From sequence record NZ_CP143948.1: DNA of 64,000 bases; one strand, given 5' to 3'. A model generated the notes under the pieces. It was not told the DNA's origin, made no database searches, and worked only from the letters and a program-made list of their open reading frames with translations. This document shows positions 42,256 through 54,908 of this stretch, in pieces (positions within the stretch are counted from its first letter, which is position 1; every line of letters begins with the position of its first letter). Source of the DNA: a plasmid. Position numbers and translations under genes: made by a program.

Positions 42256-43005
42256 CTAATTCTGACAATTTAATATTCTTTTTGCACATTCTATCTGTTC
42301 CTTTGTAGGAGGCTCCACCCCTTCAAGCTGATATGGTATACCAAGCTCCTTCCACTTGAACACCCCAAGTGTGTGGTACGGCAGCACCTCAACCCTTTCC
42401 ACCGTTTTAAGTGTGTCGATAAACTCTCTAAGCTGCTTTAAATATCTCTCATCCGTGGTGATTCCAGGCACAAGCACATGACGTATCCACATTTTTTTAC
42501 CGTTTTTTGAGAGATATTGTGCCATATCAAGGATATTCTTATTTGTCTGTCCCGTAAGCTTTTTGTGCTCCTCGTCATCTATATGCTTGATGTCCAGCAT
42601 GAAGAGATCTGTATATTTCATCAGCTCATTAAATTTGCCGAAAAACGGTTCTTCCACGGTAAACGGATTTCCTGATGTGTCAAGGCATGTGTTTACACCT
42701 TTTTCCTTTGCAAACTTAAATAGCTCTGTGACAAAGTCTATCTGCAAAAGTGCTTCACCTCCGCTTACTGTGATGCCACCTGTTTGCTTCCAGTACGCTT
42801 TATAGCGCATGGCGGTCTTTAGCACCTCCTGCGGTGTCATCAGCTTTGCACCGTCATTTTCGCCGCATTTGGCCCATGTGTCCGGGTTATGGCAGTATTT
42901 ACAGCGCATATTGCAGCCCTTCAAAAATACTATATATCTCACTCCCGGGCCGTCGGCTGAGCCGAAGCTTTCTACCGAGTGTACTCTTCCTAGTGTTTCT
43001 CCCAT
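42256..43005 (-). CDS. pflA: pyruvate formate-lyase activating enzyme (radical SAM)
   Basis: CNMRCKYCHNPDTW radical-SAM cluster motif. 249 aa. Downstream of pflB. Confidence 0.85.
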   Translation of the reverse strand: MGETLGRVHSVESFGSADGPGVRYIVFLKGCNMRCKYCHNPDTWAKCGENDGAKLMTPQEVLKTAMRYKAYWKQTGGITVSGGEALLQIDFVTELFKFAKEKGVNTCLDTSGNPFTVEEPFFGKFNELMKYTDLFMLDIKHIDDEEHKKLTGQTNKNILDMAQYLSKNGKKMWIRHVLVPGITTDERYLKQLREFIDTLKTVERVEVLPYHTLGVFKWKELGIPYQLEGVEPPTKEQIECAKRILNCQN

Positions 43006-43050
43006 GTTTTACCTGCCACTCAAAATGTGTTCAAATATACTCAAACACAT

Positions 43051-43250
43051 CGAGAAATTAAAGTCCTTGCGGATACTTCTTACTGCTTCGATGTGTATGC
43101 TTTGGCGATTGTAAACAATACGCTACTCACAAGTTCGTGTACACTCCACAGTCGTAAATTCCTGCGATAGCCCGCAGTACATACTTACGTTTGCGTTTAT
43201 TATGCAACTTCGTAAGTTAAAGCATCTCTTAGATTAAGAGCAGCATTGAA
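43051..43250 (-). ncRNA. predicted omega-RNA (reRNA) scaffold of TnpB, by position only
   Basis: Region spanning the 3' end of tnpB and the right-end sequence, where IS200/605/607 omega-RNAs are encoded. Contains hairpin ATGTGTT-n13-AACACAT. Not confirmed by folding. Confidence 0.3.
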
Positions 43251-44360
43251 ATCCCTATCCTCAACATAACCACAATCACAACGATATATTCTATCTGAAA
43301 GCTTCAAATCTTTCTTGATAGCACCACAGCAATGACATATTTTGGATGATGGATACCATCTGTCTACGACTCTTAATTCAATACCATTTTCATCACATTT
43401 TGCTTTAAGCTTGGTTCTAAATTCATAGAACTTCTGTGACGCAACAGCTTTTGAAAGATGTCTGTTCTTCATCATTCCTGATACATTCAAATTTTCAATA
43501 GTTATATAAGATGGCTTGGTTTTCACTATCTCAGCTATTGATTTATTGATATAATCAGTACGGATATTATCTATTTTATGATGAAGTCTTTGTACTTTGA
43601 GCTTTTGCTTTTGTATATTCTTTTGAGTGGACTCTCCTTTCTTTAAGTTCTCATATTTTCGTGAGAGACATCTTTGTTCTCTACGCAGTTTCTTTTCCAA
43701 TTTTTTAATTCTTGTTGACTTATTGATATTTTTATAAGTTTTACCATTGGAAACAATCGCCAAGTCTTTTAAACCCAAGTCAATTCCTATACCACCATTG
43801 CTATTATTAGCAATCTTAACGTTGGGAATTTCTACAAGAACTGACACATAGTATCTGTCTGCTTTGACGGATACTGTACCGCTTTTGATTTTCCATCCGT
43901 CTTTAGTTGTTGGTATATAACCTTTTTCTTTAATGCGTACCCAACCTAAAGTGGGTATGTTCAGCCTATGTCTCTCACATCTACAGTCTTTAGTATTGTT
44001 CTTTACGAAATACATTTTTACATCAGATTTACCTTTCTTTTTGAAATTAGGAAAAGCGCTTTGATGTTTAAAAAATCTTGTAAATGCAGTACATCCATCT
44101 TCAATAGACTTTTTTACAGCTTTTGAATATGCTTCTTTAATCCATATTTTATCAGGATTATTAGGAATATACTCATTATTAAGCCATACGCTGAAACTCT
44201 TGCCAGTCATAAACTTTTCACCGTTATCATATAAAGTTTTGTTGTGACCGAGATAGAAGTTATAGACGTACCTACAAGTGCCAATAGTCTTGTTAATCTT
44301 GATTTTTTGCTCAATCGTCGGATTTATTTCCGTCTTGAAGCTCTTTAGCAATTTCCTCAT
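43200..44360 (-). CDS. tnpB: TnpB (OrfB_IS605 RuvC-like RNA-guided endonuclease family)
   Basis: 386 aa. Split RuvC motifs (GIDLGLKD, ITIENLNV) and a C-terminal zinc finger CHCCG...CDCG. Confidence 0.85.
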   Translation of the reverse strand: MRKLLKSFKTEINPTIEQKIKINKTIGTCRYVYNFYLGHNKTLYDNGEKFMTGKSFSVWLNNEYIPNNPDKIWIKEAYSKAVKKSIEDGCTAFTRFFKHQSAFPNFKKKGKSDVKMYFVKNNTKDCRCERHRLNIPTLGWVRIKEKGYIPTTKDGWKIKSGTVSVKADRYYVSVLVEIPNVKIANNSNGGIGIDLGLKDLAIVSNGKTYKNINKSTRIKKLEKKLRREQRCLSRKYENLKKGESTQKNIQKQKLKVQRLHHKIDNIRTDYINKSIAEIVKTKPSYITIENLNVSGMMKNRHLSKAVASQKFYEFRTKLKAKCDENGIELRVVDRWYPSSKICHCCGAIKKDLKLSDRIYRCDCGYVEDRDFNAALNLRDALTYEVA

Positions 44361-44961
44361 CCCTTTCTATTTGTTTTTCATACTTACGAAGTCCATACAA
44401 CCTGCAAGAGAATACATGAAGTATAGAAACAATATCCTGTACGAGTTCTTCCTGTGGTGATAGTTCTTCGTTGTTCACTACCACAATGCTTGTATTAAAC
44501 TTCATACAGAATTTTTCAAACCAATCGTAACCAAATCTGATAAATCTATCTTTATGAGTTACTATTATGGTTTTTATTTTCTGTTCCATTACTTCATTTA
44601 ATAATTCATTCCACTTTTTACGATTGTAATTAAGACCACTTCCATAATCCTCAATACACTGGTCTATAATAATACCTTTAGCATTACAAAACTGTCGCAA
44701 AAATGCAACTTGATTCTGTAAATCATCTTTTTGATTTCTTGTAGACACTCTGGCATAAATAACTACCTGACGTTTATCATTTTCAATATTTATGCCTTTG
44801 AATTGAAGGTACTGGTCATAGGTATAATAACGCCTATCAGTTGGAGTTCGATTTGCCTTTAAAGTTCCTTCTCTGTCCCAGCGTTGCAATGTCTTAACAG
44901 ACACACCTAACAGTTCAGCAAAATCTTTTGGCTTATAATTTGTGATATTTGATGTATTCAT
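44311..44961 (-). CDS. tnpA: IS607-family TnpA: MerR-like HTH plus serine recombinase
   Basis: N-terminal HTH (FAELLGVSVKTLQRWDREG), catalytic VVIYARVSTRNQKDDLQNQ. Overlaps tnpB by 50 nt. Confidence 0.85.
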   Translation of the reverse strand: MNTSNITNYKPKDFAELLGVSVKTLQRWDREGTLKANRTPTDRRYYTYDQYLQFKGINIENDKRQVVIYARVSTRNQKDDLQNQVAFLRQFCNAKGIIIDQCIEDYGSGLNYNRKKWNELLNEVMEQKIKTIIVTHKDRFIRFGYDWFEKFCMKFNTSIVVVNNEELSPQEELVQDIVSILHVFSCRLYGLRKYEKQIERDEEIAKELQDGNKSDD

Positions 44962-45084
44962 AATAATTTACTCCTTTGAGTATATTTAAACACATTTAAT
45001 CACATTTAACAATATATTCAATTACTTATTTTCTCCTCCTAGGTTGTTGCTACTACTTTTATTTTATGGTACGGAATTTTCGGC

Positions 45085-45215
45085 AACCCGCCAGCCGGGA
45101 CTTTTCAATGCTCAGGTTCTTCGGGCTAAGAGGCTGTATGAATTATGATTTTGGTTTTCTATGCTTGACGCGACCGGCTTTTACACACCTTCCGAAAATT
45201 CCTTACGCTGTGGTG
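45085..45215. repeat. partial, divergent copy of the repeat family seen at 50525-50820
   Basis: Shared core gctaagaGGCTGTATGAATTATGattttGGTTTTCTATGCTTGACGcgACCGGCTTTTAc and a CCTTACGyTGTGG end. Confidence 0.5.
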
Positions 45216-45283
45216 TTATTTAGAAAATCAGAATATGCAGGCACTTGGCCTGCACATTCTGGAATGTTGGATATTTTTTTATA

Positions 45284-47536
45284 TTACATTCTCTCGTGGC
45301 ATGTACGTGAGATTACATCGAGCTGCTGCTCTCTTGTGAGGTCGATGAACTTAACTGCGTATCCTGATACTCGGATTGTGAAGTTTGCGTACTCCTCCTT
45401 CTCAGGATGCTCCATTGCATCGATGAGCTTCTCTTTACCGAATACGTTTACATTGAGGTGATGTGCACCCTGATCGAAGTATCCGTCCATTACGTTTACA
45501 AGGTTGTCGATTCTCTCTCCCTCGTTGTTTCCGAGTGCTCCCGGATTGATGGTCTGTGTATTTGAGATTCCATCAAGCGCCCACTCATATGGAAGCTTTG
45601 TGAGTGAGTTTAAGGATGCGAGAAGTCCGTTCTGCTCTGCGCCGTATGATGGGTTTGCTCCCGGTGAGAGTGGCTCTCCGGCTTTACGTCCGTCAGGCAT
45701 TGCTCCTGTAGCTTTTCCGTATACTACGTTTGATGTAATTGTAAGGATTGATGTTGTAGGCTCTGAATCACGGTATGTGTGATGCTTCTTTAACTTGTCC
45801 ATGAATGTCTTAAGAAGCCATACACCGATTTCGTCCGCGCGGTCATCATCGTTTCCGTATTTAGGGAACTCTCCCTCGATTTCGAAATCCTTTGCCAGTC
45901 CGCTCTCGTCACGGACTACTTTAACCTTTGCATATTTGATTGCTGAAAGAGAATCGATTACGTGTGAGAATCCTGCGATTCCTGTTGCAAATGTTCTCTT
46001 TAAGTCTGTATCCATGAGTGCAAGCTCTGCTGCCTCATAGTAGTATTTGTCATGCATGTACTGGATAAGGTTTAATGTATTTACATAGATGTCTACTAAC
46101 CAGTCCATCATCTTGTCGTATTTCGCCATTACCTCGTCATAGTCAAGGTACTCTGCTGTGATAGGTGCGTAGTTTGGTCCTACCTGCTCACCTGATTTTT
46201 CATCAACACCACCGTTGATAGCGTAAAGGAGACATTTTGCAAGGTTTGCACGTGCTCCGAAGAACTGCATCTCTTTACCTGTCTGTGTTGCAGATACACA
46301 GCAGCAGATTGCATAATCATCGCCCCATACAGGCTTCATTGCGTCATCGTTCTCATACTGGATTGAGCTTGTCTCAATTGAGATGCGGGCTGCATAATCC
46401 TTGAAGGTCTGAGGAAGCTTTGATGAGTAGAATACTGTGAGGTTTGGCTCCGGTGCAGGTCCCATGTTCTCTAATGTATGGAGGAAACGGAAGTCTGTCT
46501 TTGTAACCATTGAACGTCCGTCCACACCTGTTCCTGCCACGTCAAGTGTTGCCCATACAGGATCACCTGAGAATAACTGGTTGTATGAAGGAATACGTGC
46601 AAATTTAACCATACGAAGCTTCATTGTAAAATGGTCGATGAGCTCCTGTGCTTCCTGCTCTGTGAGGATGCCCTTGTCCATATCTCTCTTGATGTAAATG
46701 TCAAGGAATGTAGATACACGTCCTACTGACATTGCTGCACCATTCTGTGTCTTGATTGCTGCAAGGTATCCGAAGTATAACCACTGAACTGCCTCTTTTG
46801 CGTTTGTTGCAGGTCTTGAGATATCATATCCGTAAATCTCTGCAAGCTTCTTCATATCCTCAAGACATTTAATCTGCTCTGCGATTTCCTCTCTTAAACG
46901 GATAACATCATCTGTCATCTGTCCACAGCCACAGTTTGCCTTATCCTTCTTTTTCTCTTCGATGAGATAATCAAGTCCGTATAATGCTACACGACGGTAA
47001 TCGCCTACGATACGTCCACGGCCGTATGTGTCAGGAAGACCTGTAAGGATCTTTGCATGACGAACCTTCATCATCTCAGGTGTGTATGCATCGAATACTG
47101 CTGTGTTGTGTGTCTTATGATATTTTGTGAAAATTTCCTTGAGCTTGTCGCTTACATTGTAACCATATGTCTCAGCAGCCTGTACTGCCATCTTGATTCC
47201 ACCGTAAGGCATGAATGCTCTCTTTAACGGCTTATCTGTCTGAAGACCTACAATCTGCTCGAGGTCCTTTAATGACTCATCTATATATCCAGGGCCGTAA
47301 GCTGTAATTCCTGTTACAACCTCTGTCTCCATGTCAAGAACTCCGCCCTTGGCACGCTCCTCTTTCTGTAATTTCTGAAGCGCATCCCACAGCTTGTTTG
47401 TAGCATCTGTCGGATCAGCTAAAAAGCTCTCATCTCCGTCGTATGGAGTGTAGTTGTCCTGAATAAACTGACGGACGTTGATTTCCTCTTTCCAAAGACG
47501 TCCTTCAAATCCATCCCACTCTTTCATCTCTATCAT
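45284..47536 (-). CDS. pflB: formate C-acetyltransferase (pyruvate formate-lyase, glycyl radical enzyme)
   Basis: 750 aa. C-terminal glycyl-radical motif RVSGYAVKF and catalytic CC pair (AICCCVSA). Confidence 0.9.
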
Positions 47537-47856
47537 TGTAATATCCTCCTTAAAATGTATGAATGTTACTTCGTTTGATTAGTTTTGTTTAACTGTGGTT
47601 AGTATATACTTACTACAGTATTTTTGTCAATATCCCTGTTGTTTCTTTTGAGATACATTCCCTGGTTATTTACACGACCATGGCTGATTTTATAATCAAA
47701 AAGAGCCAACTGTCCGGGTTTATCGCCCAGACGGTCGGCTCTTATTTGTTATATTTCATGTGGTTATTCCACTTATCCGTCAGTCATATAACACGTTCAT
47801 AGTAGACTATTTTTCTCAATAAAGCAATAGTGTTTTAGAACTATTTTTATTCTTTT

Positions 47857-50524: not shown

Positions 50525-50820
50525 CATGGGGCTGGGCGTAAGTCACAGAGTCCGGGCGGGCACGCCACACTCTCGCTTCCGCTACGCTTCGCAGCTAAGA
50601 TTCTGTACGAATTATGCCTTTGGGTTTTTCTATGCTTGACGAAACCGGCTTTTATGCGCCGTCCATGGCGCATAACGCCTTGCCCAGCCGTCCATGGCTG
50701 GGCATTTCTGGGTTTCATGGGCATAATTCTACAGCTTCTAAGCTGCTCCGCTATTCGCGTCCGCGAGGGTGCGACGTGCCCACCCGGACTCTGCGACTTA
50801 CGCCCCTTACGTTGTGGATG
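50525..50820. repeat. MITE-like intergenic repeat bounded by 31-bp imperfect terminal inverted repeats
   Basis: GGGCGTAAGTCACAGAGTCCGGGCGGGCACG at 50534-50564 versus CGTGCCCACCCGGACTCTGCGACTTACGCCC at 50775-50805 (29/31 complementary). Internal GTCCATGG-loop hairpins. Confidence 0.55.
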
Positions 50821-54796: not shown

Positions 54797-54908
54797 ATCC
54801 TCTTATTGTTCGATTACTCGCTCAGGTTGGCACCTTCCTGTTTTCTAACGGGGTTGCCGTGACTTCATAGATCCTTTGTATCTCCATCACTCTGAATAAG
54901 AGAAGTTA
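54797..54908 (-). ncRNA. SAM-I (S-box) riboswitch
   Basis: Minus-strand sequence CTCTTATTCAGAGTGATGGAGATAC...GGATCTATGAAGTCACGGCAACC...GGTGCCAACCTGAGC...CAATAAGAG matches the S-box consensus (CTCTTATCAAGAG...GGCAACC...GTGCCAA...AGAG) directly upstream of metK. Confidence 0.7.

What the first reader, a model, noticed from the sequence alone, without database searches (positions are those of the whole stretch)
43024..45000. IS607-family tnpA-tnpB element inserted between pflB and pflA, with conserved 22-bp end sequences and a presumptive omega-RNA
pflB and pflA are normally adjacent or co-transcribed. Here a serine-recombinase TnpA (MerR-like HTH) and a 386-aa TnpB (RuvC plus zinc finger) separate them. 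The two ends share TTTGAGTATATTT[A/G]AACACATT (44975-44996, and the reverse complement of 43024-43050), which is unexpected because IS607 elements are usually described as lacking terminal inverted repeats. The right end abuts the pflA start codon at 43005, so the insertion may have replaced pflA's native promoter. The 3' end of tnpB plus the right-end sequence (43051-43250, minus strand) is where an omega-RNA would be encoded, with its guide derived from the pflA-proximal flank.
Basis: partly seen in the sequence, partly recalled or inferred. Interest (0 to 1): 0.55.

Follow-up and report, generated by a model that had tools for sequence, protein, structure and literature searches.

The report
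Known IS607 element splitting pflA's ribosome site
The 2 kb between pflB and pflA is a copy of ISEre1, a published IS607-family mobile element of the gut bacterium Agathobacter rectalis, so it is ordinary; the one notable point is that it, like its relatives, sits exactly between a host gene's ribosome-binding site and its start codon.

Summary
The finding is real and its main interpretation is correct, but the element is already known. TnpB (386 aa) and the 187-nt guide-RNA scaffold (43013-43199, minus strand) are 100% identical to ISEre1 of [Eubacterium] rectale. Ren et al. 2024 (Cell Res, PMC11061315) list its TnpB among nine active in E. coli plasmid interference with a 5'-AGGAG TAM.

An uninterrupted pflB-pflA locus (L089) sets the insert at 2,023 bp (43013-45035). 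There is no target duplication, only a shared AGG.

However, it is subterminal, lying 38 bp inside the left end and 10 bp inside the right end. Subterminal inverted repeats are a documented IS607-family trait, so it is not unexpected.

The insertion did not replace a promoter. It cut pflA's Shine-Dalgarno sequence (AGGAG|G) away from its ATG, which now lies 7 nt past the right end.

This placement is family-wide. AGGAG flanks the left end in 47 of 51 copies. A same-strand start codon follows the right end within about 4-12 nt in roughly 65-80% of about 130 distinct sites. I found no paper linking the AGGAG TAM to the Shine-Dalgarno sequence. How the downstream genes, which include glmS and birA, are translated remains open.

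The parts
43013..45035 (-). Whole ISEre1 insertion, 2,023 bp. The boundaries carry a 3-nt ambiguity because AGG is shared by both junctions; 43012-45034 or 43015-45037 are equivalent descriptions.
   Evidence: Empty site L089 reads CAACAACCTAGGAGGTAAAACATG. The occupied site reads CCTAGGAGG|AGAAAAT...GAGTGGCAGG|TAAAACATG. Homology to 80 copies ends at these points. GC is 33% against 41.7% for the window.
45036..45040 (-). Host AGGAG. It is pflA's native Shine-Dalgarno core, the integration target, and the TnpB TAM in the empty site.
   Evidence: In the empty site AGGAG lies 7 nt before the pflA ATG. AGGAG flanks the left end in 47 of 51 copies. The published TAM is 5'-AGGAG.
44962..45035 (-). 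Left end, 74 bp. It holds 10-bp direct repeats (TTAAATGTGA / TTAAATGTGT / TTAAATATAC), which are putative TnpA-binding motifs, and tnpA's own ribosome-binding site AAAGGAG.
   Evidence: Sequence. Conserved across copies. The binding role is inferred by analogy with IS1535 subterminal repeats.
44975..44997 (.).
44311..44961 (-). tnpA, an IS607-type serine recombinase of 216 aa. It has an N-terminal MerR HTH, a catalytic domain at residues 66-194, and a YARVS motif with Ser73.
   Evidence: Pfam. NCBIfam NF033518 IS607 family transposase, 231.5 bits against a cutoff of 110, full length. PDB relatives are ISC1926, ISC1904 and IS1535 TnpA. Motif position.
43200..44360 (-). tnpB, an RNA-guided endonuclease of 386 aa. 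It overlaps the tnpA 3' end by 50 nt.
   Evidence: 100% identical to ISEre1 TnpB. Closely similar over its whole length to the solved ISFba1 TnpB, 8IAZ (E 5e-226). RuvC residues D194, E289 and D370 and the TAM-contact residues N61, N62, K80, K83, Y117, N121, N122 and S160 are all present.
43013..43199 (-). Omega-RNA (reRNA) scaffold, 187 nt. Its RAGATH-18 core is at 43080-43152.
   Evidence: Exact match to the published ISEre1 scaffold. Rfam RF03064, 68.8 bits, E 6e-13. Consensus structure over 47 copies has 41 pairs, 14 with compensatory changes.
43023..43045 (.). Right arm of the subterminal inverted repeat. It lies inside the omega-RNA scaffold, so it may serve twice: as a TnpA site in DNA and as part of the scaffold's 3' closing helix in RNA.
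   Evidence: The predicted closing helix (alignment columns 242-255 with 18-35) reaches only the repeat's outer end, about 43023-43026, and then runs on to about 43015. It shows only one-sided changes, so this helix is weakly supported.
42993..43012 (-). Predicted 20-nt guide, GTAAAACATGGGAGAAACAC. It covers the pflA spacer, the ATG and codons 2-5.
   Evidence: These are the bases immediately 3' of the scaffold. The same 20 nt follow AGGAG in empty site L089. The 20-nt optimum is taken from Ren et al.. Transcription was not shown here.
42256..43005 (-). pflA (pyruvate formate-lyase activating enzyme). It is now preceded by GGCAG instead of AGGAG.

Best explanation
This is an intact, autonomous copy of ISEre1, an IS607-family insertion sequence of Agathobacter rectalis. 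It is inserted in the sense orientation exactly between the Shine-Dalgarno sequence and the start codon of pflA.

Shown here:
- Sequence identity with the published element.
- The exact insertion point, with no target duplication.
- Intact catalytic motifs in both proteins.
- A covarying guide-RNA scaffold.
- The same AGGAG/start-codon context at more than 100 other sites.

Taken from published experiments:
- The identical TnpB is listed among nine that gave plasmid interference in E. coli with a 5'-AGGAG TAM and a 20-nt target (Ren et al. 2024, Fig. 3c legend).
- In the close relative ISFba1, single substitutions at any of the five TAM positions abolish cleavage.
- In a related IS607-family element (CboIStron), the serine recombinase excises the element as a circle. 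This leaves a precise donor joint, and TnpB cuts that joint to restore the element.

Inferred for this locus:
- TnpA binds the subterminal repeats and exchanges strands at a 2-bp core inside the shared AGG. The family-wide common dinucleotide is AG.
- Transcripts running through the element yield a 187-nt scaffold plus about 20 nt of pflA leader and coding sequence as the guide.
- After excision the site becomes AGGAG plus GTAAAACATGGGAGAAACAC. This is a perfect TAM and target, so TnpB cleaves it and recombination with a sister copy reinstates the element.
- The occupied site is immune. There the target is preceded by GGCAG, which differs from the TAM at two positions.
- pflA has lost its strong ribosome-binding site and is probably translated less efficiently.
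For: - Identity: TnpB 386/386 and scaffold 187/187 match ISEre1. The solved ISFba1 TnpB (8IAZ) matches at E 5e-226. RAGATH-18 scores above the gathering score.
- TnpA is a full-length NF033518 IS607 transposase.
- Empty site L089 against nine occupied sites among contigs encoding the identical PflA.
- 46 distinct reconstructed sites, 47 of 51 with exact AGGAG, plus 91 more distinct right-end flanks from metagenomes.
- Published TAM and activity. Published excision and homing for an IS607-family relative.
- Catalytic and TAM-contact residues are conserved.
- Scaffold covariation.
Against: - Nothing here shows transcription, TnpA activity or homing in A. rectalis itself.
- In other strains the copy at this same site carries a split or truncated tnpB (L082, L083, L088). 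The insertion may therefore be old and largely static in this lineage.
- IS607 elements are described as using a GG core, whereas this clade's right end always ends in AG. The core dinucleotide is unresolved.
Confidence: 0.92

Rival explanations
1. The copy at pflA is domesticated. Under this reading TnpB and its omega-RNA act as an RNA-guided repressor or regulator of pflA, in the manner of TldR, because the guide covers the pflA start region.
For: The guide is complementary to the pflA translation-initiation region. The insertion is present in 9 of 10 sampled contigs that encode the identical PflA.
Against: - The RuvC triad is intact, unlike the nuclease-dead TldR proteins.
- At the occupied site the target is preceded by GGCAG, not AGGAG, and single TAM substitutions abolish cleavage in ISFba1.
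- The same element sits at more than 100 unrelated genes.
- An empty allele exists.
- tnpB is broken in some strains with no change at pflA.
Confidence: 0.04
2. [quoted passage not shown]
For: The element is in the sense orientation inside a transcribed leader. IS607-family IStrons exist in Clostridia.
Against: - No group I intron match anywhere in 42500-45800, even at E up to 10.
- The left end is only 74 bp before tnpA, which is too short for a ribozyme.
- Group B IStrons are described as ending in CGG after a GG target, which is not the case here.
Confidence: 0.02
3. The copy is an immobile relic, fixed by descent in A. rectalis, and none of its functions operates any longer.
For: Frameshifted or truncated tnpB occurs at the same site in other strains (L082, L083, L088). 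The site is occupied in most sampled genomes.
Against: - In this window both ORFs, both ends and the scaffold are intact and identical to the published ISEre1 sequences, whose TnpB is listed as active.
- A 99.8%-identical copy with a different left flank exists (L001).
- An empty allele with a scarless AGGAGG TAAAAC junction exists.
Confidence: 0.1

Closest known systems
ISEre1 / ISFba1 group: IS607 TnpBs guided by RAGATH-18-derived reRNAs (Ren et al. 2024, Cell Res, PMC11061315; PDB 8IAZ)
   Same: TnpB and the 187-nt scaffold are 100% identical to ISEre1. The AGGAG TAM lies next to the left end. The scaffold follows the tnpB stop codon without overlapping the coding sequence. The RuvC and TAM-contact residues reported for ISFba1 are all present.
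   Different: Nothing differs at the sequence level. That paper mentions AG-rich TAMs next to the left end, but its text never contains 'ribosome', 'Shine' or 'start codon'. The SD-splitting placement shown here is therefore an added observation, not a different element.
IS607, IS1535 and ISC1926, the founding IS607-family members (Kersulyte 2000; Chen et al. 2018, eLife, PMC6188088)
   Same: A serine-recombinase TnpA with the HTH N-terminal to the catalytic domain. tnpB lies downstream. No target duplication and no true terminal inverted repeats. Subterminal inverted and direct repeats lie at unequal distances from the two ends.
   Different: Those elements end in GG, insert at a bare (G)GG, and show little further target preference. 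This clade ends in CAG and is found after the pentamer AGGAG.
CboIStron and intron-less IS607 elements of Clostridium (Zedaveinyte et al. 2024, bioRxiv 10.1101/2023.11.20.567912)
   Same: The mechanism is the best experimental model: circular excision with a precise donor joint, a TnpA target motif that matches the TnpB TAM, TnpB-driven restoration, and an omega-RNA with three stem-loops and a guide of about 18 nt beyond the right end.
   Different: The TAM and target there are TGGG with a GG core, and the element carries a group I intron. Here there is no intron and the TAM is AGGAG.
ISDra2 TnpB (IS200/IS605 family)
   Same: RNA-guided RuvC nuclease and the TAM-plus-guide logic. It matches at E 1e-41.
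   Different: It has an HUH TnpA, single-stranded DNA transposition, a TTGAT TAM, and an omega-RNA that overlaps the tnpB coding sequence.

Membership tests
IS607 family of insertion sequences | TnpA is a small serine recombinase whose DNA-binding HTH is N-terminal to the catalytic domain. | tested here: met
   MerR HTH at residues 9-58 and Resolvase at 66-194. NF033518 'IS607 family transposase', 231.5 bits against a cutoff of 110, covering profile positions 1-187 of 187. PDB relatives are ISC1926, ISC1904 and IS1535 TnpA.
IS607 family of insertion sequences | Insertion produces no target-site duplication. | tested here: met
   Comparing the empty and occupied sites shows only a shared AGG at both junctions and nothing duplicated.
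IS607 family of insertion sequences | No true terminal inverted repeats. Instead there are subterminal inverted and direct repeats at unequal distances from the ends. | tested here: met
   The inverted repeat lies 38 bp inside the left end and 10 bp inside the right end. Direct repeats with 10-bp spacing occur in the left end. The feature is described.
IS607 family of insertion sequences | GG core dinucleotide at the termini and at the target. | tested here: inconclusive
   The shared AGG in the window allows either GG or AG. Across copies the right end always ends in AG, and the next base is G in only 20 of 47. AG therefore fits better than GG.
IS607 family of insertion sequences | Mobility: the same element is found at different sites, and unoccupied alleles exist. 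| tested here: met
   46 distinct sites in genomes, 91 distinct right-end flanks in metagenomes, and empty allele L089.
RAGATH-18 reRNA-guided IS607 TnpB systems (Ren et al. 2024) | A RAGATH-18 RNA lies immediately 3' of tnpB, inside a scaffold of about 187 nt that does not overlap the coding sequence. | tested here: met
   RF03064 at 68.8 bits against a gathering score of 44.9. The scaffold at 43013-43199 equals the published ISEre1 scaffold and begins right after the stop codon.
RAGATH-18 reRNA-guided IS607 TnpB systems (Ren et al. 2024) | A TnpB of about 390 aa with an intact RuvC D-E-D triad and a zinc finger. | tested here: met
   D194, E289, D370, and the CHCC...CDC motifs. Aligned to 8IAZ.
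RAGATH-18 reRNA-guided IS607 TnpB systems (Ren et al. 2024) | A 5'-AGGAG TAM lies next to the left end, that is, 5' of the guide-matching sequence in the empty site. | tested here: met
   L089 reads AGGAG followed by GTAAAACATGGGAGAAACAC. 47 of 51 copies show it.
RAGATH-18 reRNA-guided IS607 TnpB systems (Ren et al. 2024) | RNA-guided double-stranded DNA cleavage. | not testable with these tools
   Plasmid interference is published for ISEre1 TnpB, whose listed sequence is identical to this protein (Fig. 3c legend; identity).
IStron (group I intron fused to an IS607) | A group I intron ribozyme occupies the 5' part of the element. | tested here: not met
   No intron family matched 42500-45800 at E up to 10. 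The left end is only 74 bp.
TldR-type domesticated TnpB regulators | An inactivated RuvC site and loss of the association with transposon ends. | tested here: not met
   The catalytic triad is intact. Both ends and tnpA are present.

The most novel reading that the evidence does not exclude
The RAGATH-18 clade of IS607 elements may be a dedicated 'ribosome-binding-site homing' transposon. Its integration target and nuclease TAM (AGGAG) are the Shine-Dalgarno consensus. Copies therefore sit, in the sense orientation, between the SD and the start codon of host genes, including glmS, birA, uvrA and pflA.

The novel reading is that this placement is adaptive rather than incidental. The element would hitch-hike on host promoters for its own expression. 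The structured omega-RNA scaffold, now the gene's 5' leader, would either sustain SD-poor translation or act as a reversible, scarlessly excisable translational valve on the host gene.

My data establish the placement pattern. They do not establish any function for it. I found no paper in the held library that makes the SD connection.
Probability: 0.2. Interest if true: 0.6.

Novelty: already known. Interest (0 to 1): 0.3.

Why it matters
As an annotation the finding matters little, because it is a published insertion sequence whose nuclease has been tested experimentally.

The added observation has some value. The TAM and target of this widespread gut-Firmicute transposon is the Shine-Dalgarno core, and copies split the SD from the AUG at more than 100 independent genes. 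This poses a concrete, testable question: how are genes such as glmS, birA and pflA translated when their SD is replaced by GGCAG at the foot of a 187-nt structured RNA?

It also means that omega-RNA maturation and the downstream mRNA's integrity compete for the same transcript. Finally, these elements could be natural, reversible modulators of gene expression in abundant human gut species.

Tried and rejected
1. IStron or group I intron. Rfam found no intron at E up to 10 in 42500-45800, and the left end is too short.

2. The right end as a substitute Shine-Dalgarno sequence. GGCAGG can pair with the anti-SD with one mismatch, and the window's junction scores -8.8 kcal/mol against -11.6 for the native site. 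Across 35 sites, however, the occupied leaders average -4.4, against -9.8 for the reconstructed empty sites and -2.4 for random 16-mers. About 20% of random 16-mers do as well, and the right end alone gives -3.0. This is at best a weak effect. The anti-SD sequence used was the canonical one and was not read from this genome.

3. Target-site duplication. None was found. An apparent CAAA repeat at L003 is not seen in other copies.

4. Promoter replacement. The sigma-70 scan shows no enrichment (9 sites found, 9.5 expected), and the native spacer is intact upstream of the left end.

5. Other copies in the window. There are none: the right-end motif occurs exactly once, and near-matches are at chance level.

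6. The weak TwoAYGGAY-like match in the pflB-pflA spacer (22.7 bits, E 2.9) is below threshold and was not pursued.

7. The first control for start-codon proximity was too loose, giving 13% at random positions. It was replaced by a stricter gene-start criterion.

8. The Science version of Zedaveinyte et al. is not held, so the bioRxiv version was used.
Full report
**What is in the sequence.**
Four minus-strand genes occupy the region:
- pflB, 45284-47536 (PFL-like plus glycine-radical domains).
- tnpA, 44311-44961 (216 aa; MerR-type HTH plus resolvase catalytic domain).
- tnpB, 43200-44360 (386 aa; HTH_OrfB_IS605, OrfB_IS605, Cas12f1-like TNB).
- pflA, 42256-43005 (radical SAM).

It is a 23-nt inverted repeat at 43023-43045 / 44975-44997 with one mismatch. 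It occurs nowhere else in the window, and none is expected by chance.

**True boundaries.**
A scan of one genome per species with TnpB returned 80 related loci in Lachnospiraceae, Erysipelotrichaceae and other gut Firmicutes. BLAST of the window element against them shows homology ending sharply at about 45040 on the left and about 43013 on the right, not at the repeat. Printing the junctions in register showed unrelated flanks outside these points.

A look-up of contigs encoding the identical PflA returned ten places. Nine carry the element at the same site. One, L089, has pflB and pflA separated only by the native spacer.

L089 reads ...CAACAACCTAGGAGGTAAAACATGGGAG.... The window reads ...CCTAGGAGG|AGAAAAT...GAGTGGCAGG|TAAAACATG.... 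The insert is therefore 2,023 bp (43013-45035). It has a 3-nt junction ambiguity (AGG) and no target duplication.

The repeat arms lie 38 bp inside the left end and 10 bp inside the right end. Chen et al. [quoted passage not shown] The repeat is therefore expected, not anomalous.

**Identity.**
- Rfam places RAGATH-18 (RF03064) at 43080-43152 on the minus strand, at 68.8 bits against a gathering score of 44.9.
- Ren et al. 2024 showed that RAGATH-18-derived RNAs are the guide RNAs of a clade of IS607 TnpBs of about 390 aa. Their TAM is 5'-AGGAG in 18 of 22 strains.
- Their Table S2 lists ISEre1 from [Eubacterium] rectale AM42-1. Its 386-aa TnpB equals the window protein, and its 187-nt scaffold equals window 43199 to 43013 exactly.
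- The exact-sequence look-up names the proteins as Agathobacter rectalis.
- ISEre1 TnpB is listed among nine TnpBs that gave plasmid interference in E. coli with an AGGAG TAM (Fig. 3c legend).
- The solved ISFba1 TnpB (8IAZ) aligns over the whole length at E 5e-226.
- The RuvC residues D194, E289 and D370 are present. So is every TAM- or heteroduplex-contact residue reported for ISFba1: N61, N62, K80, K83, Y117, N121, N122 and S160.
- TnpA is a full-length match to NCBIfam 'IS607 family transposase' and resembles the solved ISC1926, ISC1904 and IS1535 catalytic domains.
- An alignment of 47 scaffolds gives a consensus of 41 base pairs, 14 of them with compensatory double changes. These concentrate in the first hairpin, the RAGATH-18 terminal stem and the third hairpin.

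**How it most likely works.**
Published work on a related IS607-family element shows three things. The serine recombinase excises the element as a circle and leaves a precise donor joint. The integration motif equals the TnpB TAM. TnpB cleavage of the donor joint restores the element.

Transferred to this locus, which is inference, the chain is as follows:
- The guide is the 20 nt after 43013, GTAAAACATGGGAGAAACAC.
- The empty site presents AGGAG followed by exactly that sequence, so it is a perfect substrate.
- In the occupied site the same 20 nt are preceded by GGCAG, two changes from the TAM. Any single TAM change abolishes cleavage in ISFba1, which explains self-immunity.

The crossover core is unresolved. 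The window allows AG or GG. Across copies the right end always ends in AG, and the next base is G in only 20 of 47.

The AGGAG next to the left end is pflA's own Shine-Dalgarno sequence. In the empty allele it lies 7 nt before the ATG. The insertion leaves the SD 2 kb upstream and puts the right end 7 nt before the ATG. The 243-bp pflB-pflA spacer, including a 14-bp terminator-like hairpin just after pflB (45229-45261), is untouched. No promoter was replaced.

The placement is a property of the whole clade:
- Of 51 genome copies with both flanks, 47 have exact AGGAG at the left junction.
- They represent 46 distinct sites.
- All right ends read ...TTTTGAGTGGCAG.

| Sample | Criterion | Same-strand start codon opening an ORF, just after the right end |
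|---|---|---|
| Genome copies | lenient | 58 of 72, within 0-12 nt, mode 6-8 |
| Genome copies, reconstructed empty sites | strict gene start | 33 of 51 |
| All AGGAG pentamers in the same flanks | strict gene start | 14.5% |
| Random positions | strict gene start | 2.8% |
| Metagenome contigs, 91 further distinct right-end flanks | start plus ORF at 2-12 nt | 64 of 91 |
| Metagenome contigs | any ATG within +3 to +15 | 74 of 91 |

Downstream ORFs align with curated family models from at or near their first residue, so these are true starts. They include glmS, birA, uvrA (in two genomes at different sites), argJ, aroA, recJ, malQ, topB and xdhA.

Ren et al. noted AG-rich TAMs beside the left end. 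Their text contains no mention of ribosome, Shine-Dalgarno or start codon. Five literature searches found no paper connecting IS607 or its AGGAG TAM with the SD. The held library lacks most subscription journals, so this is absence in that library only.

**Why the copies cluster at SDs, and how the host genes are expressed.**
The simplest reading is that TnpA and TnpB both need AGGAG, that most non-SD AGGAGs lie inside coding sequences where insertions are lost to selection, and that SD-adjacent insertions are survivable.

I tested whether the right end supplies a replacement SD. GGCAGG can pair with the anti-SD with one mismatch, and the window's junction reaches -8.8 kcal/mol against -11.6 for the native site. 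Over 35 sites, however, occupied leaders average -4.4, against -9.8 for reconstructed empty sites and -2.4 for random sequence. The right end alone gives -3.0. The surrogate-SD idea is therefore weak.

Genes usually considered essential, such as glmS and birA, sit behind such insertions. The pflA copy persists in most sampled strains, even where tnpB has decayed (L082, L083, L088). Expression evidently continues. The mechanism is unknown and can be tested.

**Alternatives.**
- IStron: excluded. No intron was found, and the left end is 74 bp.
- TldR-like domesticated regulator: not supported. The RuvC site is intact and the TAM is absent at the occupied site.
- Immobile relic: possible for some strains, but this copy is intact and identical to the published ISEre1, whose TnpB is listed as active, and a scarless empty allele exists.

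**Verdict.**
The finding is correct and well observed, but the element is already known. The boundaries, the status of the repeat, the 'promoter' remark and the exact omega-RNA extent need the corrections given above. The modest added interest lies in the family-wide splitting of ribosome-binding sites.

Noticed in passing
window 47718-47797 (-): A ZMP/ZTP riboswitch (the 'pfl' RNA motif, RF01750, 57 bits against a gathering score of 39) lies about 180 nt upstream of the pflB start. pflB is therefore probably riboswitch-controlled. The IS lies downstream of this unit and could receive read-through transcription from it.
   Followed up: no
window 45229-45261 (-): A strong terminator-like hairpin (14-bp stem, 7 GC pairs, followed by a T-rich tail) lies directly after the pflB stop codon. 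This suggests pflA is not simply co-transcribed with pflB. The 243-bp spacer is identical in the empty allele L089.
   Followed up: partly
window 50584-50753 (-) and 45118-45256 (-): A strong TwoAYGGAY RNA (RF01731, 152.8 bits) lies at 50584-50753. A sub-threshold match to the same model (22.7 bits, E 2.9) lies in the pflB-pflA spacer and is probably chance.
   Followed up: no
window 54800-54902 (-): A SAM riboswitch (RF00162, 71.8 bits).
   Followed up: no
L002, L006, L008, L012, L047, L048 and many others: Many related copies have lost most or all of tnpA but keep the left end, tnpB, the scaffold and the right end. These are non-autonomous derivatives that retain the nuclease and guide. This agrees with the report by Ren et al. 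that many TnpAs are pseudogenes.
   Followed up: partly
L082, L083, L088 (same pflA site in other A. rectalis assemblies): tnpB is split or N-terminally truncated (235+166 aa, 336 aa, 149+215 aa) while tnpA and pflA remain intact. The pflA insertion is therefore old enough to decay in place.
   Followed up: no
L025:5351 and L046:5351: Two different genomes (Clostridium sp. UMGS615 and Blautia schinkii) each carry a copy in front of uvrA, with different flanks. These look like independent insertions at the same gene.
   Followed up: no
L019, L023 (alignment A1 columns 80-95) and L032 (columns 120-151): Some scaffolds carry 16-nt or 32-nt insertions inside RAGATH-18 loop regions. This implies those loops tolerate extra sequence.
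   Followed up: no
L001 (1,966-bp contig): A contig with a 99.8%-identical ISEre1 copy and a different left flank is binned in a 'Brachyspira sp.' MAG. It is probably a mis-binned repeat contig. It also shows that a second insertion site exists for the near-identical element.
   Followed up: no
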